Of a stretch of DNA of 41,610 nucleotides, positions 1,874 to 12,285 are shown piece by piece (position 1 is the first letter of the stretch; each line of letters opens with the position of its first letter). The position numbers were made by a program, and so were the translations under genes. The notes under the pieces are model-generated. The model saw nothing but the letters and a program-made list of their open reading frames with translations. It was not told the DNA's origin and ran no database searches. The stretch lies in IMG/VR virus record IMGVR_UViG_2537561977_000020, one strand, 5' to 3'. The DNA is from a virus. Lineage: Duplodnaviria; Heunggongvirae; Uroviricota; Caudoviricetes.

Positions 1874-2070
1874 TACTGGCTGCGACACTTTTGAATAAAA
1901 GCGTCGACATTTCGGCGCTCATAACGAACTACTTTTGCACTGAAACGAATTGGAGCCAGGATAGCCCGATGACGATGCTTAATATTCCACTCACATAGCG
2001 TTTTCTGTGTAATACCTAACTTTTGGCATACTTCATCCGGGGTGAGTAAATCGTCGGGTTTCTCGCTCAT
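1870..2070 (-). CDS. xis: excisionase / AlpA-like HTH DNA-binding protein
   Basis: 66-aa ORF, HTH-like LLTPDEVCQKLGITQKTLCEW, adjacent to int. Confidence 0.5.
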   Translation of the reverse strand: MSEKPDDLLTPDEVCQKLGITQKTLCEWNIKHRHRAILAPIRFSAKVVRYERRNVDAFIQKCRSQY

Positions 2071-3461
2071 GCTATACCTCTCTTTTTCATGGCATCGAGC
2101 AGGATGTCCTGCACTGTTCGTTTTGAGTTGCGCCGCTCCATCACCATTTCGTCCATAGTGTCGGCGGCGATAATGTGGTGAATGAACACCGGACGATTGT
2201 GTCCGGCCTGTATCTGTCTGGTTGGGCCGATACGTTCAATAATTTGCTGATATTGCTCCAGGTCCCACCAGTGTGAGAAAAATACCAGTATATATCCGCC
2301 GTCCTGCATGTTCAGACCGTGGCCCGCGCTGGCTGGGTGTGCAAAGAGAACAGGAATCTTTCCGGAATTCCAGTCACGTAGTGTCTGTGGATCCTGGTCG
2401 AGGTGACGACCGCGAGGAAATGCTTTAAGCAAGCGTTCAAGATCGTGTTTCCAGTGATAAGCAACCAGCACAGGTGCGCCAGCTGCTTCGGTCAGTATGC
2501 TGTCCAGCGCCTGTAGTTTGGTGTCATGCAGTTCTGACCAACTTCCGGCGTCGTCTGTGTATACTGCGCCACTGGCGATTTGCAGACACTTCAGTGTCTT
2601 TGCCGCGGCGTTCGGTGCTTCGATGCCTTCGCCATTCAGCTCGAGGAACATTTCCTTTTCCATTTCACGATACTGCTGACGGGCCTTCGGCGGCATATCC
2701 ACGCGGATTACGTTATGGATGGGGGCTTTGATATCGAACCAGTCGGCCGCATCCAGCGAGAGGGTCACATCGGCTAATGCTCGCTGTATTTCAGCCTGTG
2801 AGTGAGCAAACGGCTCCAGTTTGGTCCAGCTCTGCCCTGGAAACTGTATCGAGTTGAACCAGCGTGAGGTAAACGCGCCGTAAGTGCGTCCGAGACGTTG
2901 CCCCTGGTCCACAAACCACGCTTGTCCCCACAAATCTACCAGGCCGTTCGGTGCTGGCGTACCGGTGAGATTTATCCAGCGCCGGACATACTTATGCGCC
3001 ACTTTGCCCAGCGCCGCCGCGCGCTTACCACCACCTCGCAGCCGGAAGGATTTTAGCCGGGTGCTTTCATCCGGAATGACAGTACCGAACGGCCATCGTT
3101 CTCCCAATTCTTCAACCAGCCAGACAAGGTTATCGTAGTTGATGGTGAACACGCTTGCGTTGCTGTTCGCCAGCGCCGTAGAGCGCGCTTTGGCATTACC
3201 AACAATCGGCTGTACCTCGATATTGCGCAGATGCTCCCATTTCAGTGCTTCATCCGGCCATGTGCTTGCTGCAACGCGTAGCGGCGCGAGGACCAGTGCG
3301 GGGCGTGTTTCTGCCCCTGCCATAAAGAGATCTTCCAGCGTAGTGAGCGTTGCCACGGTTTTACCCATTCCCATCCCTGCCCAGATGTTGCCGCGCAGGG
3401 TCTCGATTTGATGATTGATGATGAGATCTTGGTAGGGGCGGGGGGTGAAAATTTGTCCCAT
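2067..3461 (-). CDS. SNF2/DEAD-DEAH family helicase
   Basis: Walker A GMGMGKT, DExx-like VIPDESTRLK, C-terminal helicase motifs; 464 aa. Confidence 0.7.
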   Translation of the reverse strand: MGQIFTPRPYQDLIINHQIETLRGNIWAGMGMGKTVATLTTLEDLFMAGAETRPALVLAPLRVAASTWPDEALKWEHLRNIEVQPIVGNAKARSTALANSNASVFTINYDNLVWLVEELGERWPFGTVIPDESTRLKSFRLRGGGKRAAALGKVAHKYVRRWINLTGTPAPNGLVDLWGQAWFVDQGQRLGRTYGAFTSRWFNSIQFPGQSWTKLEPFAHSQAEIQRALADVTLSLDAADWFDIKAPIHNVIRVDMPPKARQQYREMEKEMFLELNGEGIEAPNAAAKTLKCLQIASGAVYTDDAGSWSELHDTKLQALDSILTEAAGAPVLVAYHWKHDLERLLKAFPRGRHLDQDPQTLRDWNSGKIPVLFAHPASAGHGLNMQDGGYILVFFSHWWDLEQYQQIIERIGPTRQIQAGHNRPVFIHHIIAADTMDEMVMERRNSKRTVQDILLDAMKKRGIA

Positions 3462-3505
3462 AGTATTTTAGCCAGTAGGGCGCGGGGTAATCCCGCGCAA
3501 TAATG

Positions 3506-4255
3506 TCAGATCAGATCGGTGTAGTAGGTGAAGTTGCCAAACTGCGGATGTGTCCAGCGCTTGCGGTTACCTTTCGGCGGTGTCGATTCGTTTAACAGCT
3601 TTTGAGCTGCTTGTTCGATCGCTGGGAGGTTAACGAGCAATCCCCGAACACCGGTGTCTGAACGTACCGGTATACTGGCGAAGCCGATCAATTTCCGGCA
3701 TGTTGAATCAGATAAACCTGTTTTCCATGCTGCTTTGCTGACGGGGACATATTCACCTTCAACATGAGGTAAATTCGCTGGTGCTGCGGGTTGAGAATAG
3801 CCGGTTGCGTCCAGACAAGCTTTCATCGTTGCTTCTGCAACGACTCGAGCAAGTTGGACGATGCCGTCGTTGATCTGAATTTTGGGTGTGGAAGGATGGG
3901 TAACAAGCGGTTGTACTTTACCTGTTTCCAGCTCACGCCAGCGCTTAACTACTTTATACCGGTCGTGGGCGCTATAACCAGTTACAAGCGTTGTGGAAAG
4001 GTCCTGATCGAGTAGTATTTCATCAATGACTTCGCGACCATTATAGATCTTCCTTTTGACTAAAAAGTCTTTATTTTCATGATGGTACATTTCTGTACTA
4101 TGAAAACCCAACTGCTCAAGAAGTGCTTTAATATCGCGCACGACTATTTTATGTTCTTTGCTGGTAAGTTCTGCAATCTCGCGACTGCTCATCATCGGTT
4201 GCTTACCAGTGCCTGCTAGTGTTAAAGTTCTTTCGGACATTGAAGTGTTCTCCAT
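3506..4255 (-). CDS. Rha-family phage regulatory protein (antirepressor-like)
   Basis: N-terminal MMSSREIAELTSKEHKIVVRDIK resembles Phage_pRha domain. Confidence 0.6.
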   Translation of the reverse strand: MENTSMSERTLTLAGTGKQPMMSSREIAELTSKEHKIVVRDIKALLEQLGFHSTEMYHHENKDFLVKRKIYNGREVIDEILLDQDLSTTLVTGYSAHDRYKVVKRWRELETGKVQPLVTHPSTPKIQINDGIVQLARVVAEATMKACLDATGYSQPAAPANLPHVEGEYVPVSKAAWKTGLSDSTCRKLIGFASIPVRSDTGVRGLLVNLPAIEQAAQKLLNESTPPKGNRKRWTHPQFGNFTYYTDLI

Positions 4256-5853: not shown

Positions 5854-5878
5854 AAAAAGCCCCTGACTGAGCAGGGGC
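5854..5878 (-). terminator. intrinsic terminator after antirepressor cassette 1
   Basis: Minus-strand hairpin GCCCCUG-CUCAGU-CAGGGGC then U5; near-identical copy at 10090..10114. Confidence 0.6.
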
Positions 5879-5889
5879 GAATTGAAGGA

Positions 5890-6654
5890 TTAACGGGGTA
5901 ACTCTGGTGGAATATATCTGCCGATGCGGTCTTCTATGGTCGGCAGAATGCACATGCTGTCGTTAAAGCGGTCATGCAGTTTGTAGACCAGTTTCGAATC
6001 CATTTTTTCGAGAGCAGGCATTAACTGCGCTCGCCAGATTTCATTAATACGTCGGAAGTTATGACAGACGGCGCGGAGATTGTTGATGAACATTTCCTTT
6101 TCTGCGTCACTGATTCCGGTCTGTGCTTTCTGAATGCATTTCGTGCTGCCATTCCGGTAGAAGCGTTCCTGGGCAGCGACAGCCTCATCCACGGATGGAT
6201 AACACCCTACGTAAACGCTTTTCTCTCCGTTCCATGCGTAGGCTCTGTACGGGTTGTATTTGCTCTGGTGATGGTAAACCATCTTCGGCAGGCACTCCCT
6301 GTGCGGCGCCAGTATCGTGGAGGACTGCTGGTGCAGTTTGCGTTCGCATTCGATGAAGTATCGGCGTATCTGGCGACCTTTTTCGTTACGCTCGACCATC
6401 GCCAGTTCTTTGGCTGTATCGAGGGTGAGGTGGTAGTCCTTACAAAGAACATTTTTACGCTTTCCAGTTTTGGAAAGCGTTACGATATAATCCTGATTTT
6501 CAACGAATTTATAGTCTGCAATTCGTGATGTAATCCATGCTGCAAACACTTTCCCTACCCCAAGGAATGCGTGCAGATCGCGAGCATTGCAGAGCAGGGT
6601 GATTTCGTTGGCGATAGCGCCGTTGAAAACGGGGATGAGTTGAGCTGCCATCAC
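5890..6654 (-). CDS. antirepressor (AntA-like N-domain + KilA-C-like C-domain)
   Basis: N-terminal IPVFNGAIANEITLLCNARDLHAFLGVGKVFAAWITSRI; C-terminal ~145 aa nearly identical to ORF 10126..10899. Confidence 0.6.
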   Translation of the reverse strand: MMAAQLIPVFNGAIANEITLLCNARDLHAFLGVGKVFAAWITSRIADYKFVENQDYIVTLSKTGKRKNVLCKDYHLTLDTAKELAMVERNEKGRQIRRYFIECERKLHQQSSTILAPHRECLPKMVYHHQSKYNPYRAYAWNGEKSVYVGCYPSVDEAVAAQERFYRNGSTKCIQKAQTGISDAEKEMFINNLRAVCHNFRRINEIWRAQLMPALEKMDSKLVYKLHDRFNDSMCILPTIEDRIGRYIPPELPR

Positions 6655-7106: not shown

Positions 7107-7136
7107 AATATACCTATTGGTCATCGCGGATGTCAA
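7107..7136 (-). promoter_or_regulatory. sigma70-like promoter of antirepressor cassette 1
   Basis: Minus strand TTGACA (7136-7131), 18-bp spacer, TATATT (7112-7107); conserved copy at 11121..11150. Confidence 0.55.
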
Positions 7137-10059
7137 TCTTTCCGGTATCTGTAAGATTCGAATCCTCCGGCGTTTAGTGGAATGCTCGTGGCCCAGTCAG
7201 GAACGGTTGCCAGTAACTGGCTGACATGTTCTGCTGAGTAATCGGGTGAGTCAGGGGCCTCACTTATAATTTCATCGTGTACCGTCAGCACAATGCTGTA
7301 ACCGGCATCTTCGATAAGCGGCATGTTTCCGGCCAGAACGTCGCGGGCGGCCGCCTGGGTGACGTTCTCCACCAGCTTTCCGCCGTAGGTTTTGAGTCGT
7401 TGCCATTTACGCGAATAAGAGTTAACACCCATATAGGTGATATTCCCTTTTTCGATAACCGGAGACGGGTAGCATACAGCGCGTCCGGATGGTAGCTGTA
7501 TGCGCAGCCACGCGCCATCGCGGCGGATTTTAAGATAACCGCAATACAATGTTTTTTGCGGTGTGGCGATTGCAGTGCGGACGGTGCGCTCCAGTTCGTA
7601 CCAGAAATCGCAGGTCGCCGGGTGCGCCCTGCGCCAGAGACGTTTAAGTGAGTCGCAGGCGATAAATACCCGTTCAGAAAGGCCGTAGGTTGACTTACGT
7701 TTAACCGATTCGTAGTACCAGCTTTTCGCCTCGCGGATAACATCGCGGGGAATGTTTGGCAGTGCGGCGTTCGCCAGCTCGTCGAGATCGAGACTGTAAA
7801 CCAGTGCAAAAGTGATGAAGGCCGACACACCACCACCGTACCCGCAGTTGTGAACGATTAAATGTCCTGAGTCGGTTTTAATCGTGAATCTGTTTCGAGG
7901 CCCCGCATGTGCAATGTCGTAAACATCGCTCCAGCTCGTCGATACGTTTTTGCAGGTCTGCGATTTTTCTTCTGTTGCGGTTATTGTCTGCTTTGGAGAC
8001 GAACTGGATATTACCCGGTTCGTAGCCTTTGTTATTGTCGATGCGATCCATTTCCAACTTTGGGTCATTAAACCCTTTGATTTCCCTGACGTGTAGCAAA
8101 AAAGCTCTTTTATCTTCCTGCCATAGCTGACAAACGTAGATCCCCCGACCGCCGTAGTTGTGAAACAACCTGTTGGTGGGTTTATGGCAACGGCTGATTG
8201 CGGCAGACAATCGGTTAAGTAGCCTGCGACGGGTTTCGTCATCTGCAATAGCATCCGCATAGCATAAGAATTTTTTACGATACTCGTTATGCTTTTTCTT
8301 TGCGCAAATGTTACATCGGGTACTTTTTCCTTTAAGGAGATTGCTGATTGTTGCGGTGTGAGGCATTGCACCACATTTGCATTTGACAAGTATCCTTCGG
8401 TCTTTTCCGGGTACTTTTTCCAGTTCTTTGATAACGGTAAGTTCTCCGAAGCAAGTTCCAGGCTTTGGTGAAGCGTATTTTTGTTTAAAGCGATAAGGTT
8501 TGCCAGCTTCCATCCAGTAGGGGTTAGCACCTGGTGATCCGGGGTCATTTTTGCTCCGTCCAGTGATATTAAGGCTTTGTACCCCCTGTAAATCAGTCCT
8601 TCGTGTTTTACCCATTCTTCTCCGTCCCATAACAAATCCGCGCCCGAAATACTAACAAGCGGCTTATAGCCTTTATCGGTGAGCACTAAAGTATCCGGAG
8701 CTATGCAAGCCAATTCCAGCACTTTACCTATCTGGCGCTGGTCTTTGGTGACGCGCTCAACTTCAATTCCGTAAGCTTTTGCATACGCCAGTTTATATAA
8801 GTCCGGACCCGCTCCGGCGTCGTACTCTCTGAATGCATTCAGTTTCCATTCTTCTCCCGCCAGCCATGCCAGCATACGGCCTTCAATGTTCGACAAGTCA
8901 CTTACCACCAGTTTTTACCTGTTGGCGCGATAATGCAGCCACGTAACGCTGAACTGGTTAGTTCCATGATATTGTCAAACAGCAGGTCTGCACATCCGGC
9001 TTTCAGTGCTTCGATGCCTTCGTCTATTTGTTCCTGTTTTAGTGAAGGGCGGGGAAGATTCTGGGGCTGGAATAGCCGTCCGGCCCAGCGCCCGGTACGT
9101 GACGCCCCGCAGAACTGTAGCGTACCGCGTAAGCGCCCGTCGTGGCTTACGCCTTTCATCAGTGCCTTGTATTTACTGGTGCTGGTAGTACTGGCTTGCT
9201 GGCGGATAGCCAGCAGTTCTTTCACGGCAGATGGTAAATCGGGGTCGGCTATACGACGTTCCAGGGTACTGCGTTGCATGTCTGGTAGCTCCACACCGTA
9301 GGATTCAACGATGTGCTTAATCAACGCGTCCCGTTGTGTGGCTGCCTGCACTTCGCCATCAGTCATTTCCTGTGTACGCTTTGCCAGGCGCTTTTGCTCC
9401 TGGTCTACCGCTTCGATCGCAGCGCGCGCGAGTTGAATGTCCATGCAGACGCCCCGGTCGTTGATCTGCTGATCACGATGCCAGAGCGCCAGTTCTGTCC
9501 CCTGATAATTCCACTTCGGCAGACGTTTATAGACTTCGCGCATTGCCTCGATATCCAGCCCGGCGTAAGCAACAAAGCGCCGCCATTCTTCCGGGTGGGT
9601 TTTACTGGTGGCCCGACGCAGTTTGCTGTTTTTCGGGCGTGGCTTACAGAACAGCTGGATCAGCGCTTTACCTTCTTTGTCCTTCGCTTTGTCTTGCGGG
9701 ACGCCGAGTATTTCGCAGAGTTCCCCCAGAGACCCCGGGAGGCCGTGCGCCAGCGCCTGCACCATTGTGTCGCGCCAACGTTCGACTGGCGGTGCCAGTC
9801 GCGGCATTGCATAACGCAGGACGGTGCGGTCGAAGTGAGAGTTATGAAAATAAAGCAGGGTCTCAGGGGCTGCGATTGCTTCGTATAAGCCGTGTGGAAT
9901 ACCACCACCGGCAGTGATATCCCACACGTTTACGGGCCCGTCGTTGATAGCCCATGCGAACAGCATCACTTCAACGCCTTCGGCATACGCATGGGTACCG
10001 TTCGTAATAGGGATTTCGCAATAGGTTTCCAGGTCGCCCCATAGAATGTTTTCAGACAA
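7133..10059 (-). CDS. family A DNA polymerase (3'-5' exo + pol), frame-broken and intein-containing
   Basis: Exo motifs [33 protein letters not shown]; pol motifs [26 protein letters not shown] (motif A), [10 protein letters not shown]|CGYGGG (motif B split), LTVHDEI (motif C). Two track ORFs (8902..10059, 7133..8908) joined by -1 shift at T5 run 8912-8916. TTG start 10059 with GGAGGA upstream. Confidence 0.7.
7847..8707 (-). mobile_element. intein inserted in DNA polymerase motif B
   Basis: Begins Cys after KVLELA (CIAPDTLVL...), block B TPDHQVLT, ends ...HLIVHN followed by +1 Cys (CGYGGG); 287 codons. Confidence 0.6.
7878..8630 (-). CDS. HNH homing endonuclease ORF nested in the intein, different frame from Hint blocks
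   Basis: [12 protein letters not shown]...[28 protein letters not shown] plus Cys-rich N-region (CKCG...RCNIC); recognisable domain from about 8513 (MEAGKPYRF); frame is -1 relative to intein splicing blocks. Confidence 0.55.
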   Translation of the reverse strand: MGRRRMGKTRRTDLQGVQSLNITGRSKNDPGSPGANPYWMEAGKPYRFKQKYASPKPGTCFGELTVIKELEKVPGKDRRILVKCKCGAMPHTATISNLLKGKSTRCNICAKKKHNEYRKKFLCYADAIADDETRRRLLNRLSAAISRCHKPTNRLFHNYGGRGIYVCQLWQEDKRAFLLHVREIKGFNDPKLEMDRIDNNKGYEPGNIQFVSKADNNRNRRKIADLQKRIDELERCLRHCTCGASKQIHD

Positions 10060-10089: not shown

Positions 10090-10114
10090 AAAAAGCCCCT
10101 GGCTGAGCAGGGGC
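10090..10114 (-). terminator. intrinsic terminator after antirepressor cassette 2
   Basis: Minus-strand hairpin GCCCCUG-CUCAGCC-AGGGGC then U5; paralogous to 5854..5878. Confidence 0.6.
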
Positions 10115-10125
10115 GGATTGAATGA

Positions 10126-10899
10126 TTAACGAGGTAAAGTGGGTGGAATATATCTGCCGATGCGGTCTTCTATGGTCGGCAGAGCACACATGCTGTCGCT
10201 GAAGCGATCATGCAACTGGTAAACCAGTTTCGAATCCATTTTTTCGAGGGCAGGCATTAACTGCGAGCGCCAGATTTCATTGATGCGCCGGAAGTTATGA
10301 CAGATGGCGCGGAGATTGTTGATGAACATTTCCTTCTCTGCGTCATTGATTGCTGTCTGCACTTTCTGAATACGCTTTGTGCTGCCGTTCCGGTAAAAGT
10401 CCTTCTGCGCAGCGACAGCCTCATCCACGGTTGGATAGCACCCGACGTAAACGTTCTTCTCTCCGTTCCATGCGTAGGCTCTGTACGGGTTGTATTTGCT
10501 ACTGTGGTGGTAAACCATTTTCGGCAGACACTCCCTGTGCGGCGCCAGTACCGTGGAGGACTGCGGAATAGCGGTTTCTTTCTCTATAAGATCAAGCACC
10601 CAACGGCGAAATTCTTTTGCTACTGGCGTTGTTGCGAACATCGCTACCAGGTGAGCACCGCGTAGAGAGAAAATGCGGTTATTCATTTGGACGGAGCCGG
10701 TTTTCCTAACGACCGTCAATTTGACGGTCGTTGTCATTTCAACTGAAAACTCATCCCGATTACGGTCATAAATACGAGCGACTGAGTCCGTTCGTGAGTA
10801 TTCCAGCGCGGTCGCCAGAGTGGCAGCGGTGAACCAAGATTTGCCGTTATGTTCGATCGTTTCGAGAATGTGGGATTTGAATACGAGTTGGGTACTCAT
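10126..10899 (-). CDS. Bro-N/KilA-C type antirepressor-like protein
   Basis: Probable start MSTQLVFKSH at 10899 (track ORF extends to 11064 through the leader); Bro-N-like N-domain; C-terminal domain paralogous to 5890..6654. Confidence 0.55.
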   Translation of the reverse strand: MSTQLVFKSHILETIEHNGKSWFTAATLATALEYSRTDSVARIYDRNRDEFSVEMTTTVKLTVVRKTGSVQMNNRIFSLRGAHLVAMFATTPVAKEFRRWVLDLIEKETAIPQSSTVLAPHRECLPKMVYHHSSKYNPYRAYAWNGEKNVYVGCYPTVDEAVAAQKDFYRNGSTKRIQKVQTAINDAEKEMFINNLRAICHNFRRINEIWRSQLMPALEKMDSKLVYQLHDRFSDSMCALPTIEDRIGRYIPPTLPR

Positions 10900-10937
10900 G
10901 GTTTTATGCCCTAGTAGATATTTTGAATTTACCCTTT

Positions 10938-11016
10938 TTGAGAGGGTGGTCGGGCGCTCAAAACCGCTACTAGTCGGCGGGCGTATTTCCCTTCGGAAGG
11001 GTGTTGTATTAGCCGC
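10938..11016 (-). promoter_or_regulatory. structured leader element, cassette 2
   Basis: GGTCGGGCG (10938-10946) / CGCCCGACC (11008-11016) enclosing 61 nt with CCCUUCGGAAGGG hairpin; arms covary with cassette 1. Confidence 0.45.
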
Positions 11017-11120
11017 ACGCCCGACCATTGAATTCTCAATATCATGGACATAAAAAATCCGCATGACTGACGGGCGCGGTTTCCGCTAGTAGAAAAGGTG
11101 TTTTGAGCACCATGAAGCGG

Positions 11121-11225: not shown

Positions 11226-11773
11226 TTAAATTAGTGCTTCAGCATCAGCACTTTCGCTGATATCGTCGAAATCGTCAGCGCTTGCCACTCCGCCGCCAGC
11301 GAATGCATCGCCGTCTCGCAGGAACTGGACTCCGCCGAGTGAGGCATTAATGCGTTTACCGAAATTATTGTCCTGTGCCCAGATATCGATAACGGCGTTT
11401 ACATAGCACCCTGCATAGGGACGTCCATCAGCCTGAATTAGTGGCGAACGATCGCGATCAAGAACAGCTGGGCGCGCTTTGTTAGCAGCGTTCAGGAAGA
11501 AATTGCCGGGAAAGCCTTCATACTCTGCTTTTTCATCACCATCATGCAGGCACAGATTGAGTTTTTCTCCAGCTGGTTATAAATGGACTCCAACTTCTCC
11601 CCCCATTTTTCCTTCGCTACCTGCTTCATAGCTTTACGGATTTCTTCCAGTTGTGGGTGTTTGGGAGACATTAAAAATACTGCGGAGAAACGCGGATCGC
11701 CTTCGCCGTTTACAGTTTTAGCTTCAAACAGAGCAGGAAAAGCTAATCTCACGTTATTTAATTTAATCTTCAT
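11226..11773 (-). CDS. DUF2815-type phage single-strand DNA-binding protein, frame-broken
   Basis: N-terminus MKIKLNNVRLAFPALFEAK; continues in -1 frame after T5 run 11562-11566 as LCLHDGDEKAEYEGFPGNFF...ending 11226; track shows only 11492..11773. Confidence 0.6.
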
Positions 11774-12285
11774 TTCAAAACTCCTATAAATTCTATGGAT
11801 TCTTTTTCCGCTGCTTTACGCGCAATTACAGCTTCCGCTACGGAATTAAATAGACCTAAATGTTTTTCTTTGCCGTGCAGCTTTATATAAGCTCTCCACT
11901 TATTACGGTGACGGCAAACCCCAACGGCACCGCTTTTATTATCAGAGCGTAAGGATTGGTTAATGTTATTTTCGGTAGAGGTTACAAGTCGTAGATTAGA
12001 AAGGGTGTAATTGCTCCGATTTTTGTCTATGTGATCTACCTCTAATCCCGAGGGGATACTACCGTTATGCATAACCCAGACGATGCGATGTAACAACATT
12101 TTCCGACCGTTTACACTTACGTGATAATACCCGTCCGGCCTTATATGTCCCGCTTGCTTATCTGCATATTTAGCATTCCAGGACAAATAGTCTCGCCGGG
12201 TTTTAAAATGGGTGAGCGGACGATATTTCCATATTAAAACGCCATTGTGATACCGGAAGCATTCATTTAAATATTCTTGATCCAA
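11770..12285 (-). CDS. HNH homing endonuclease (HNH + AP2-like DNA-binding domain)
   Basis: EVDHIDKNRSNYTLSNLRLVTSTEN and SGAVGVCRHRNKWRAYIKLHGKEKHLGLF. Confidence 0.65.
   Translation of the reverse strand: MDQEYLNECFRYHNGVLIWKYRPLTHFKTRRDYLSWNAKYADKQAGHIRPDGYYHVSVNGRKMLLHRIVWVMHNGSIPSGLEVDHIDKNRSNYTLSNLRLVTSTENNINQSLRSDNKSGAVGVCRHRNKWRAYIKLHGKEKHLGLFNSVAEAVIARKAAEKESIEFIGVLK

What the first reader, a model, noticed from the sequence alone, without database searches (positions are those of the whole stretch)
7878..8630. HNH endonuclease encoded out of frame inside a polymerase intein, with both frames open
The intein splicing blocks (CIAPD..., TPDHQVLT, ...DVYDIAHAG...HLIVHN|C) are in the polymerase frame, but the only recognisable endonuclease (YGGRGIYVC...[18 protein letters not shown]) is in the -1 frame between them. 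The polymerase frame still stays open for ~185 codons across the HNH region, giving low-complexity S/T/K-rich sequence; by chance that is roughly a 1e-3 to 1e-4 event. Either a free-standing HNH gene is nested in an alternative frame of a still-spliceable intein (an arrangement I do not recall being described), or a normal in-frame Hint-HNH-Hint intein is broken by homopolymer errors: inserting one A at each of three A5 runs (8478-8482, 7964-7968, 7947-7951) restores a single frame.
Basis: partly seen in the sequence, partly recalled or inferred. Interest (0 to 1): 0.75.

Follow-up and report, generated by a model that had tools for sequence, protein, structure and literature searches.

The report
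Endonuclease gene hidden inside an intein
A self-splicing protein insert (intein) in a prophage DNA polymerase gene carries a complete second gene, for an HNH-like DNA-cutting enzyme, in another reading frame of the same DNA; the layout is real and conserved in hundreds of phages, but the general design was first reported in 2025 for other phages.

Summary
A 287-codon class-1 intein (window 8707->7847, minus strand) sits in motif B of a family A DNA polymerase. A 250-codon ORF (8630->7878) lies in its -1 frame and matches phage 'HNH endonuclease' families. Both frames are open; the third has 19 stops.

The three-homopolymer-error reading is refuted. Four other E. coli genomes carry this intein at 99.8-100% identity with the same A5 runs, and three have an intact 944-aa polymerase. 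The same frame offset recurs in Salmonella phage Ent1, Pseudomonas phage MR14 and 35 diverse viral contigs.

Substitution patterns show selection on the polymerase frame at the Hint ends and on the HNH frame in the middle. There the polymerase frame is only an unstructured, stop-free linker. The nuclease start codon and a Shine-Dalgarno-like stretch lie inside a conserved Hint WDGxxW motif.

The window itself does have single-base frameshifts, mostly at homopolymer runs, in about nine genes. One (8912-8916) splits this polymerase.

Inteins with out-of-frame nucleases were reported for actinobacteriophages in a 2025 preprint, so this is a new variant of a known kind. The nuclease's general-base His is an invariant Arg, so activity is unproven.

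The parts
7847..8707 (-). Intein coding region in the polymerase frame: 287 aa, C1 ... H286-N287, followed by +1 Cys.
   Evidence: Boundaries set by alignment with the intein-less allele: KVMELG|LGYGGG versus KVLELA-[intein]-CGYGGG. C1, HN and a +1 C/S are kept in 36 of the 37 related loci that include the intein's first codon; one has SN.
8432..8707 (-). Hint N-terminal splicing region (intein residues 1-92): block [19 protein letters not shown] motif, block B T55-P-D-H58.
   Evidence: AF2 pLDDT 73-90. Foldseek's top 17 PDB matches are all mini-inteins, prob 0.98-1.0. Polymerase-frame column identity is 0.44-0.52 over codons 1-60. In non-overlapped codons 1-26, substitutions fall 24/0/76% at host codon positions 1/2/3.
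7952..8431 (-). Polymerase-frame linker (intein residues 93-252): S/T/K-rich, no confident fold, stop-free passenger reading of the HNH core.
   Evidence: AF2 pLDDT below 50, mean about 27. Host-frame column identity is 0.18-0.33. 63% of substitutions fall at host codon position 2, which is HNH position 3.
7847..7951 (-). Hint C-terminal splicing region (residues 253-287): blocks F and [27 protein letters not shown].
   Evidence: AF2 pLDDT about 88. V262-Y-D264, G269, R273-F-T275, H286 and N287 are invariant in A3. 77-88% of substitutions fall at host position 3.
7878..8630 (-). Nested ORF in the -1 frame, 250 codons plus TAA, encoding an HNH-like endonuclease. Its likely start is the conserved ATG at 8615-8613, giving 245 aa.
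   Evidence: More than 160 homologues were found; most of the listed ones are 240-260 aa and cover most of the query. AF2 mean pLDDT is 86.6.
8613..8615 (-). Conserved start codon of the nested ORF, formed by the last base of E31 plus TG of Trp32 of the Hint motif LWDGEEWV.
   Evidence: ATG in 21 and GTG in 7 of 28 non-redundant relatives at this exact position.
8620..8628 (-). Shine-Dalgarno-like stretch GGGACGGAG, made by the W-D-G-E codons of the Hint motif.
   Evidence: Predicted anti-SD pairing is -6.6 kcal/mol here and averages -6.9 over the 28 relatives, against a background mean of -2.6; only about 5% of background positions pair as strongly.
7968..8459 (-). Conserved core of the nested protein (residues 58-221): FGELTV, a Cys4 zinc ribbon (C84, C86, C106, C109), [15 protein letters not shown], and an HNH_3-like beta-beta-alpha motif [28 protein letters not shown].
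   Evidence: This is the region shared with free-standing phage homologues, which match residues about 58-221. pLDDT is 89-98. Invariant residues are listed. BLASTP to the window's own Pfam HNH_3 protein aligns 192-225 with 81-115 at E = 2e-4.
7914..7964 (-). C-terminal helix of the nested protein (residues 223-239, coiled-coil-like). Its far end runs into the start of Hint block F in the other frame.
   Evidence: Helix 223-239, pLDDT about 86-88. Several family members give weak coiled-coil or bZIP Pfam hits.
7133..7846 (-). C-extein of the family A DNA polymerase, starting with the +1 Cys in CGYGGG (motif B).
8708..10059 (-). N-extein of the polymerase (exonuclease domain and N-terminal polymerase part). 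In this window it is broken by a 1-nt deletion.
8912..8916 (-). A5 run (coding strand) in the N-extein. The four related genomes have A6 here. The missing base splits the window's polymerase into 385-aa and 591-aa ORFs; it is probably an assembly error.
8708..8772 (-). Upstream extein tract that diverges from the intein-less allele; probably co-converted with the intein.
   Evidence: Identity to phage 689R2 falls to 50-77% from -65 to -1 nt, against 90-100% further out.
7817..7846 (-). Downstream extein tract with reduced identity to the intein-less allele.
   Evidence: 73% identity over +1 to +30 nt, then 93-100%.

Best explanation
This is a two-gene mobile element written in overlapping frames. 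Frame 0, the polymerase frame, encodes a class-1 intein inserted in motif B of a family A DNA polymerase of a temperate E. coli phage. Only its ends are functional: Hint-N (about 92 aa) and Hint-C (about 35 aa). These fold together and splice the polymerase. The 160 residues between them are a disordered linker whose only requirement is to contain no stop codon. Frame -1 encodes a separate protein of about 245 aa: a basic, disordered leader of about 45 aa, a Cys4 zinc ribbon, an HNH_3-like beta-beta-alpha motif and a C-terminal helix. It is most likely translated from the polymerase mRNA by internal initiation at an ATG and Shine-Dalgarno-like stretch supplied by the codons of the conserved Hint motif (L/V)WDGxxW(V/I). 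This protein most likely acts as the homing endonuclease. It would cut intein-less polymerase alleles near the motif-B coding site, and recombinational repair would copy in the intein with a short flanking tract. Shown here: both frames and their conservation, frame-specific purifying selection, Hint termini and predicted fold, patchy distribution, and divergent flanks. Inferred: splicing activity, the translation start, nuclease activity and its target.
Confidence: 0.8

Rival explanations
1. An ordinary in-frame Hint-HNH-Hint intein that looks broken because of three homopolymer sequencing errors.
For: Adding one A at each of 8478-8482, 7964-7968 and 7947-7951 does give a single 288-aa frame. 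The window also carries many single-base indels, mostly in homopolymers, that split about nine genes.
Against: All four other E. coli genomes have A5 at these three runs, and three have an intact polymerase CDS. The same out-of-frame relation holds in Ent1, MR14 and 35 viral contigs with quite different nucleotide sequences. The repaired frame would delete the conserved start, the leader and the C-terminal helix of the nested protein.
Confidence: 0.01
2. A decaying element. An ancestral in-frame HNH intein suffered real frameshifts, the polymerase frame was kept open by selection for the polymerase, and the HNH ORF is an unexpressed relic.
For: Real indels can change the frame relation. Relatives exist in the other alternative frame (L062, L088). 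Others have Hint-N fused in frame to the HNH core (SS3e, L090).
Against: An unexpressed frame would gather stops and lose its third-position bias. Instead it is intact in 28 non-redundant lineages, and 63% of core substitutions fall at HNH position 3. A start codon is present in 28/28, and the leader region is almost free of stops.
Confidence: 0.05
3. The nested protein is made, but as a fusion: programmed -1 ribosomal frameshifting from the polymerase frame would give N-extein-Hint-N-HNH, not an independently initiated protein.
For: The HNH frame is -1 relative to the polymerase frame. The window has a U UUA AAC-type heptamer in the right phase just upstream of the core. No promoter-like site lies inside the intein.
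Against: No slippery heptamer is conserved: 17 of 28 relatives have none in the first 110 codons, and the rest differ in sequence and place. The HNH frame is kept open about 45 codons upstream of the core, with a conserved start codon and SD-like stretch. A frameshifting mechanism would not need either.
Confidence: 0.03
4. The nested protein is expressed and under selection but is not itself the double-strand nuclease. It could be a nickase, a DNA-binding targeting factor, or a partner of another nuclease such as the free-standing HNH_3-AP2 gene at 11770-12285.
For: An invariant Arg sits where HNH_3 has the general-base His. No curated HNH model hits it. Structural similarity to His-Me nucleases is weak.
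Confidence: 0.1
5. The insert is not an intein but a tolerated in-frame loop carrying a hidden nuclease gene, as proposed for the ShiLan domain.
For: Pfam and NCBIfam do not call a Hint domain at threshold.
Against: C1, TxxH, and HN followed by a nucleophile are conserved. The ends are predicted with confidence and match solved mini-inteins. The site splits motif B (K...G|xxYG), and from established knowledge of family A polymerases a 287-aa insert there is unlikely to be tolerated.
Confidence: 0.01

Closest known systems
Actinobacteriophage inteins with an out-of-frame ('frame 3') endonuclease VII-like homing endonuclease (Gosselin, Arsenault and Gogarten, bioRxiv 10.1101/2025.01.02.630785)
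   Same: A contiguous intein whose splicing blocks lie in the host frame, with the nuclease ORF on the same strand in another frame inside it. The in-frame reading of the middle has no recognisable structure. The distribution suggests continuing transfer.
   Different: The nuclease family and architecture differ: zinc ribbon plus a C-terminal HNH_3-like motif here, against an N-terminal EndoVII-like domain there. The match to phrog_1035 'endonuclease VII' is only E = 3e-7, against 4.7e-37 for phrog_374. Hosts here are Gram-negative phages and prophages. [quoted passage not shown] Here the ORF starts inside the Hint N-terminal splicing region and ends inside block F, and its start signals are built from a Hint motif. 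The text has no occurrence of Salmonella or Escherichia.
ShiLan domain: hidden out-of-frame HNH in a mycobacteriophage DNA methylase insertion (Arsenault, Gosselin and Gogarten, Genes 2025, PMC11855218)
   Same: An insertion read through in the host frame without stops, with an HNH-type ORF in another frame that starts a few codons into the insert and stops just before its end. It behaves as a homing element.
   Different: ShiLan has no detectable splicing domain and is proposed to be tolerated as a loop; translation is proposed to be leaderless from GTG. Here Hint blocks and fold are present, and an SD-like stretch plus ATG is conserved.
Fractured genes: split inteins with a free-standing homing endonuclease gene between the halves (Dassa et al., NAR 2009, PMC2677866)
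   Same: A nuclease gene of a free-standing type is associated with an intein but not fused to it in frame. This supports the idea that nuclease genes invade pre-existing inteins.
   Different: There the host gene and intein are split into two ORFs. Here the intein is contiguous and the host frame stays open. One relative (L090) does look fractured.
Canonical in-frame HNH inteins and antisense LAGLIDADG inteins (Dalgaard 1997 and Gorbalenya 1998, as cited in the 2025 preprint)
   Same: An intein paired with a non-LAGLIDADG or non-collinear nuclease.
   Different: Those are in frame or on the opposite strand, not same-strand out of frame. I did not read these papers directly; they are cited.
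Jerseyvirus DNA polymerase intein, as annotated in Salmonella phage vB_SenS-Ent1 (HE775250, gp37)
   Same: Homologous intein and nested ORF (48% HNH identity) in the same kind of polymerase with the same frame offset.
   Different: The record annotates the intein as 'encoding splicing domains' only, with no nuclease. Some other records call the nested ORF a separate 'endonuclease' or 'hypothetical protein'. I found no paper that describes the overlap.

Membership tests
Intein (class 1, Hint fold) | N-terminal Cys or Ser nucleophile at position 1 | tested here: met
   C1 in CIAPD. Conserved in every related locus that includes the first codon.
Intein (class 1, Hint fold) | Block B TxxH motif | tested here: met
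   T55-P-D-H58 is aligned with T.DH in most relatives; a few vary at T or D.
Intein (class 1, Hint fold) | C-terminal His-Asn followed by Cys, Ser or Thr at +1 | tested here: met
   HLIVHN|C in the window. Of 38 loci, 37 have HN and one has SN; all have +1 C or S.
Intein (class 1, Hint fold) | Hint fold of the splicing domain | tested here: met
   AF2 pLDDT is 73-90 for residues 1-92 and about 88 for 253-287. The top 17 Foldseek PDB hits are mini-inteins, prob 0.98-1.0, E from 3.6e-3, rmsd 2-4 A over about 85 residues. This is a prediction from a shallow six-sequence alignment.
Intein (class 1, Hint fold) | Match to curated intein or Hint sequence models | tested here: not met
   Pfam gives no hit at E <= 10. 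TIGR01445 intein_Nterm scores E = 0.02, 15.9 bits, against a cutoff of 24.5. phrog_93 matches at E = 3e-20 but is labelled only 'endonuclease'.
Intein (class 1, Hint fold) | In-frame insertion at a conserved site, absent from close orthologues | tested here: met
   Inserted in polymerase motif B and absent from phage 689R2. 155 of 159 E. coli genomes with this polymerase match only the extein flank.
Intein (class 1, Hint fold) | Protein splicing activity | not testable with these tools
   Needs expression and a western blot or mass spectrometry.
HNH / His-Me finger nuclease | Match to a curated HNH sequence model | tested here: not met
   No Pfam HNH-type hit for the window protein or any of 116 relatives. 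NCBIfam gives none. PHROG families labelled HNH endonuclease do match: phrog_374 at 4.7e-37, and phrog_2081 and phrog_3377.
HNH / His-Me finger nuclease | Beta-beta-alpha metal-finger motif | tested here: inconclusive
HNH / His-Me finger nuclease | General-base His at the end of the first strand (the first H of HNH) | tested here: not met
   LEMDRID aligns with LEVDHID of the HNH_3 protein. R196 is invariant in 116 sequences.
HNH / His-Me finger nuclease | DNA cleavage activity | not testable with these tools
   Needs purified protein and the intein-less target.
Inteins with a same-strand out-of-frame homing endonuclease (2025 preprint) | Splicing blocks in the host frame, nuclease ORF in another frame of the same strand within the intein, host frame open throughout | tested here: met
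Inteins with a same-strand out-of-frame homing endonuclease (2025 preprint) | Nuclease of the endonuclease VII-like type | tested here: not met
   The best family is phrog_374 HNH; the phrog_1035 'endonuclease VII' match is weak at 3e-7. Here the catalytic motif is C-terminal (residues 192-221). The preprint's nuclease matches EndoVII over its residues 1-67.
Inteins with a same-strand out-of-frame homing endonuclease (2025 preprint) | Distribution pattern suggesting continuing horizontal transfer | tested here: met
   4 of 159 E. coli genomes carry it. The flanks diverge over -65 to +30 nt. The same intein-plus-HNH unit sits in an SNF2-like helicase in L040.
ShiLan-type insertion (hidden HNH, no splicing domain) | Absence of Hint or intein features | tested here: not met
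   Hint termini and predicted fold are present, so it is not filed here.
Fractured gene / split intein with free-standing nuclease gene | Host gene and intein split into two separate ORFs | tested here: not met
   The intein is contiguous in the window and its four E. coli relatives. The window's break at 8912-8916 lies in the extein and is probably an error.

The most novel reading that the evidence does not exclude
This may be a widespread, stably maintained intein-nuclease partnership in Gram-negative phages that has gone unrecognised. It is present in well over a hundred cultured Jerseyvirus and related genomes. About 250 codons are dual-coding, and the nuclease's ribosome-binding site and start codon are built into a conserved Hint motif. 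The nuclease carries an Arg in place of the HNH general-base His. Relatives show every frame relation: -1, +1, and in-frame or fractured. That would give a natural series for how free-standing nuclease genes become intein domains (the 'splicing-first' model), in hosts where homing, splicing and overlapping translation can be tested genetically.
Probability: 0.45. Interest if true: 0.65.

Novelty: new variant of a known kind. Interest (0 to 1): 0.55.

Why it matters
It shows that an intein's dispensable middle can serve as real estate for an independent gene. Selection on the host frame there reduces to a single rule: no stop codons. This is one of the longest same-strand dual-coding stretches one could expect in a phage gene. 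Each frame leaves a clean signature, so it is a good test case for overlapping-gene detection.

It also bears on the origin of intein-nuclease associations. The nuclease core matches free-standing phage genes, which supports invasion of a pre-existing mini-intein. Relatives in other frame states suggest how an in-frame domain or a split intein could arise from one or two indels.

There are practical consequences. Annotation pipelines miss the nested gene; PGAP calls only 'DNA polymerase', and the Ent1 record says 'splicing domains' only. Some records look frameshifted because of it. Because the hosts are E. coli and Salmonella phages, splicing, internal initiation and homing can all be tested with standard genetics.

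Tried and rejected
- **Curated models for the nested ORF and its 116 relatives.** Pfam and NCBIfam gave no HNH hit, only weak coiled-coil hits on the C-terminal helix.
- **Curated models for the intein.** Only a sub-threshold TIGR01445 hit.
- **Foldseek of the nested-protein model against PDB.** Nothing below E = 1.
- **PDB sequence search with the family profile.** Only weak zinc-ribbon resemblance to Cox5B.
- **Word-indexed protein search with the polymerase-frame intein.** Only 6 hits, too few for a deep alignment, so the intein model rests on 6 sequences.
- **Internal promoter scan.** None found in 7700-9000, so I assume translation from the polymerase mRNA.
- **Programmed -1 frameshifting.** The window has a UUUAAAC heptamer, but nothing is conserved across relatives. 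Rejected.
It works arithmetically but is contradicted by comparative data.
- **Apparent in-frame relatives.** P0083/SS3e and P0092/L090 each carry a 1-nt shift that breaks the polymerase. They are either record errors or natural fractured states; one record each cannot decide.
- **Eight full-text literature searches.** None found a description of this arrangement in family A polymerases, Jerseyviruses or E. coli prophages. Subscription-only papers were not searchable.
Full report
**Setting.** The window is an E. coli prophage; in strain O121 201805972 the same prophage lies next to yfhL. On the minus strand it carries a family A DNA polymerase gene, 10059->7133. In this window the gene appears as two ORFs, 8902..10059 (385 aa) and 7133..8908 (591 aa). 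Three Escherichia phages (vB_EcoM-689R2 and relatives) have a 96%-identical polymerase that lacks about 0.9 kb.

Alignment with that intein-less protein sets the insert exactly. The intein-less allele reads ...RQIGKVMELG|LGYGGG..., and the window reads ...[10 protein letters not shown]-[287 aa]-CGYGGG.... The insert is window 8707->7847. It begins with Cys, contains T55-P-D-H58, and ends HLIVHN followed by Cys. The site is polymerase motif B.

ORF 7878..8630 (-) is in the -1 frame of the polymerase. Its residues 57-223 match phrog_374 'HNH endonuclease' at E = 4.7e-37. The polymerase frame has no stop across all 250 codons of this ORF, while the third frame has 19. I held the HNH protein fixed and shuffled its synonymous codons 100,000 times. 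The polymerase frame then averaged 6.0 stops and was stop-free once. With extein codon usage it was stop-free 7 times in 100,000.

**The arrangement is not a sequencing artefact.** Among 5,426 complete E. coli genomes, 159 match the query, but only 4 match across the intein. Two are 100% identical to the window over 7700-8800. In three of them PGAP annotates a single 944-aa polymerase.

- All four relatives have A6 where the window has A5 at 8912-8916. This is what splits the window's polymerase.
- Against the CP119441 prophage, the window has about 14 isolated single-base indels, mostly in homopolymers.
- Nine genes that are intact there are split in the window, with the pieces typically 93-100% identical on both sides of each break.

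The window therefore probably comes from an error-prone assembly, but the errors are not inside the intein.

**The arrangement is a family trait.**
- A protein search with the nested ORF found more than 160 relatives. Most of the listed ones are 240-260 aa and cover most of the query at 40-53% identity. Many come from contigs of about 1 kb.
- tblastn against 50,697 phage records found 315 records. Of these, 157 cover at least 80% of the ORF, and most listed ones lie under an annotated DNA polymerase. They include Jerseyviruses such as Ent1, SE2 and f18SE, Shigella phage EP23, Pseudomonas MR14, Vibrio 97.13 and EBPR siphovirus 2.
- In Ent1 the polymerase CDS starts at locus position 1038 and the HNH match at 2501. 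In MR14 the positions are 696 and 2501. Both give offset 2 mod 3, as in the window. Ent1's record annotates the intein as 'encoding splicing domains' only.
- In IMG/VR, 35 loci of the nested type all have the +1-offset frame open for 1.4-3.7 kb across the match. Of 43 loci that match only the core (about residues 58-221), 40 have no open overlapping frame across the match.
- Two exceptions, L062 and L088, are nested at the same polymerase site but in the other alternative frame.
- All nested loci that include the first codon keep C1. All keep a +1 C or S, and all but one keep HN.
- One locus (L040) carries the unit in an SNF2-like helicase instead.

**Each frame is selected in a different place.** In 28 non-redundant sequences, polymerase-frame column identity is 0.44-0.52 over intein codons 1-60 and 0.43-0.53 over 256-285. 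It is only 0.18-0.33 over codons 91-255. HNH-frame identity is 0.34-0.66 over codons 106-255 and low at the ends.

In 32 pairs of 80-98.5% nucleotide identity, substitutions fall at polymerase codon positions 1/2/3 as follows:

| Region (intein codons) | Pos 1 | Pos 2 | Pos 3 |
|---|---|---|---|
| Hint-N, non-overlapped (1-26) | 24% | 0% | 76% |
| Hint-N / HNH leader overlap (32-75) | 34% | 25% | 41% |
| HNH core (80-250) | 12% | 63% | 25% |
| Hint-C / HNH tail overlap (256-276) | 11% | 11% | 77% |
| Hint-C, non-overlapped (277-287) | 12% | 0% | 88% |

Polymerase position 2 is HNH position 3. The middle is therefore under protein-level selection in the HNH frame, and the polymerase frame there is a passenger that must only stay open.

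Structure prediction agrees. For the polymerase-frame intein, pLDDT is 73-90 for residues 1-92, about 27 for 93-252, and about 88 for 253-287. Its 17 best PDB matches are all mini-inteins. The nested protein has mean pLDDT 86.6. Its first roughly 40 residues are low-confidence and the block means from residue 51 to 240 are 86-98.

**How the nested gene is probably expressed.** Its frame is open from a start codon that sits on the second Trp of the Hint motif (L/V)WDGxxW(V/I). This is ATG in 21 and GTG in 7 of 28 relatives. The W-D-G codons just upstream form a purine-rich stretch, TGGGAYGG. Its predicted anti-SD pairing averages -6.9 kcal/mol, against a background mean of -2.6. In the window these are ATG 8615-8613 and GGGACGGAG 8628-8620.

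Across the 28 sequences, the HNH frame has 51 stops in intein codons 1-30 but only one in codons 31-75 (my tally). So the roughly 45-codon leader that overlaps Hint-N is kept open, although its sequence is poorly conserved. Apparent conserved spots in the leader and tail (N.GS, LRHC.CGA) are shadows of Hint blocks B and F in the other frame (read directly from the sequence). No internal promoter-like site was found and no slippery heptamer is conserved. Internal initiation on the polymerase mRNA is therefore the best reading. This step is inferred.

**Is it an HNH nuclease?** The evidence is mixed.
- PHROG families and several GenBank records call relatives HNH endonucleases.
- The window also has a free-standing Pfam HNH_3 gene at 11770-12285 (E = 3.4e-19).
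- BLASTP aligns the nested protein's [28 protein letters not shown] with that protein's LEVDHIDKNRSNYTLSNLRLVTSTENNIN at E = 2e-4.
- No Pfam or NCBIfam HNH model matches any family member, and Foldseek finds nothing.
- The residue aligned with the catalytic His is an Arg that is invariant in 116 sequences.

Nuclease activity is thus plausible but unproven.

**Signs of mobility.** The intein is present in only 4 of 159 E. coli genomes that carry this polymerase. Compared with the intein-less allele, the extein is 90-100% identical except from -65 to +30 nt around the insertion site, where identity falls to 50-77%. This is what co-conversion during homing would leave, and it would also make the intein-bearing allele differ from the likely target.

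**Comparison with what is known.** A 2025 preprint on actinobacteriophage inteins reports nucleases encoded in a frame other than the intein's. These include a same-strand 'frame 3' endonuclease VII-like type that the authors call previously unreported. They propose invasion of inteins by free-standing nuclease genes. A companion paper describes a hidden out-of-frame HNH in a methylase insertion that lacks splicing domains. Neither mentions Salmonella or Escherichia.

The present case has the same general architecture. It differs in nuclease family, host gene and host phages. It also differs in the depth of overlap, since the ORF begins inside the N-terminal splicing region and ends in block F. 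Eight full-text searches found no description of it. I rate it a new variant of a known kind.

**Verdict.** The feature is real, conserved and under dual-frame selection (confidence about 0.95 for the architecture). It most likely works as an intein plus a separately translated homing endonuclease (overall 0.8). The main open points are whether the Arg-bearing HNH-like protein cuts DNA, and where translation starts.

Noticed in passing
window 8912-8916; also about 11567, 19006, 27618, 29819/29839, 30046, 30777, 31486, 31933: Compared with the same prophage in E. coli CP119441, the window has about 14 isolated single-base indels, mostly in homopolymer runs. Nine genes intact there are split here: DUF2815, DNA polymerase, DUF2213, three hypothetical genes, the major capsid C-terminus, DUF5906 and the neck terminator. 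This looks like uncorrected assembly error rather than decay.
   Followed up: yes
window 11770-12285 (-): A free-standing HNH_3 homing-endonuclease-like gene (171 aa, Pfam HNH_3 E = 3.4e-19) lies between the DUF2800 and DUF2815 genes. Its C-terminal half looks AP2-like to me (recalled, not tested). The intein-less phage 689R2 has no gene there, so it is probably a second mobile nuclease in this prophage.
   Followed up: partly
window 5854-6153 and 10090-10389; ORFs 5890-6654 (-) and 10126-11064 (-): The polymerase gene is bracketed by two paralogous cassettes, an AntA-type antirepressor and a BRO-N protein. They share a 300-nt direct repeat (88% identity) and near-identical C-terminal halves, and further repeats of about 105 nt lie nearby. 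The downstream cassette is absent in strain RMDEC465, so these look like exchangeable modules.
   Followed up: partly
L062 2489-3295 and L088 2306-3082 (IMG/VR contigs): These are inteins at the same polymerase motif-B site (ELA|CIAEG...VHN|CGYGGS). They carry a related HNH-like ORF (31-35% identity) nested in the other alternative frame. So the frame relation has changed, or the invasion happened more than once.
   Followed up: partly
L090 (ENA contig_91067) 2032-4162: In this relative, a 1-nt shift near GDRFG|ELTV fuses Hint-N in frame to the HNH core and leaves linker-Hint-C-C-extein as a separate ORF. The polymerase is also interrupted by an extra 121-aa ORF. This is either assembly error or a natural fractured-gene or split-intein state.
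   Followed up: partly
L030 (Salmonella phage SS3e, AY730274.2) 2501-3221: The SS3e record has a frameshift inside the nested ORF (two tblastn pieces in different frames), and its polymerase frame is not open. Its annotated 268-aa 'HNH endonuclease' is a Hint-N/HNH chimera. This is probably an error in an old record.
   Followed up: partly
L040 (IMG/VR 3300050202_000021): The same intein with its nested ORF sits in what looks like an SNF2-type helicase (DEAH box and ...ALTGTLLLNRPSE|C...), not a polymerase. This suggests a switch of host gene.
   Followed up: no
L005 (E. coli VL40, CM177011), equivalent to window 8389: One of the four intein-bearing genomes has an extra A in a short A run inside the intein. 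It breaks both frames, and PGAP marks the polymerase as a pseudogene. It could be real decay or an assembly error.
   Followed up: no
L089 2745-10325 (CP119441 prophage tail region): In strain O121 201805972 the tail gene DUF3383 of this prophage is broken up by IS600, IS421, IS66 and IS1 copies. That copy of the prophage is defective, although its polymerase and intein are intact.
   Followed up: no
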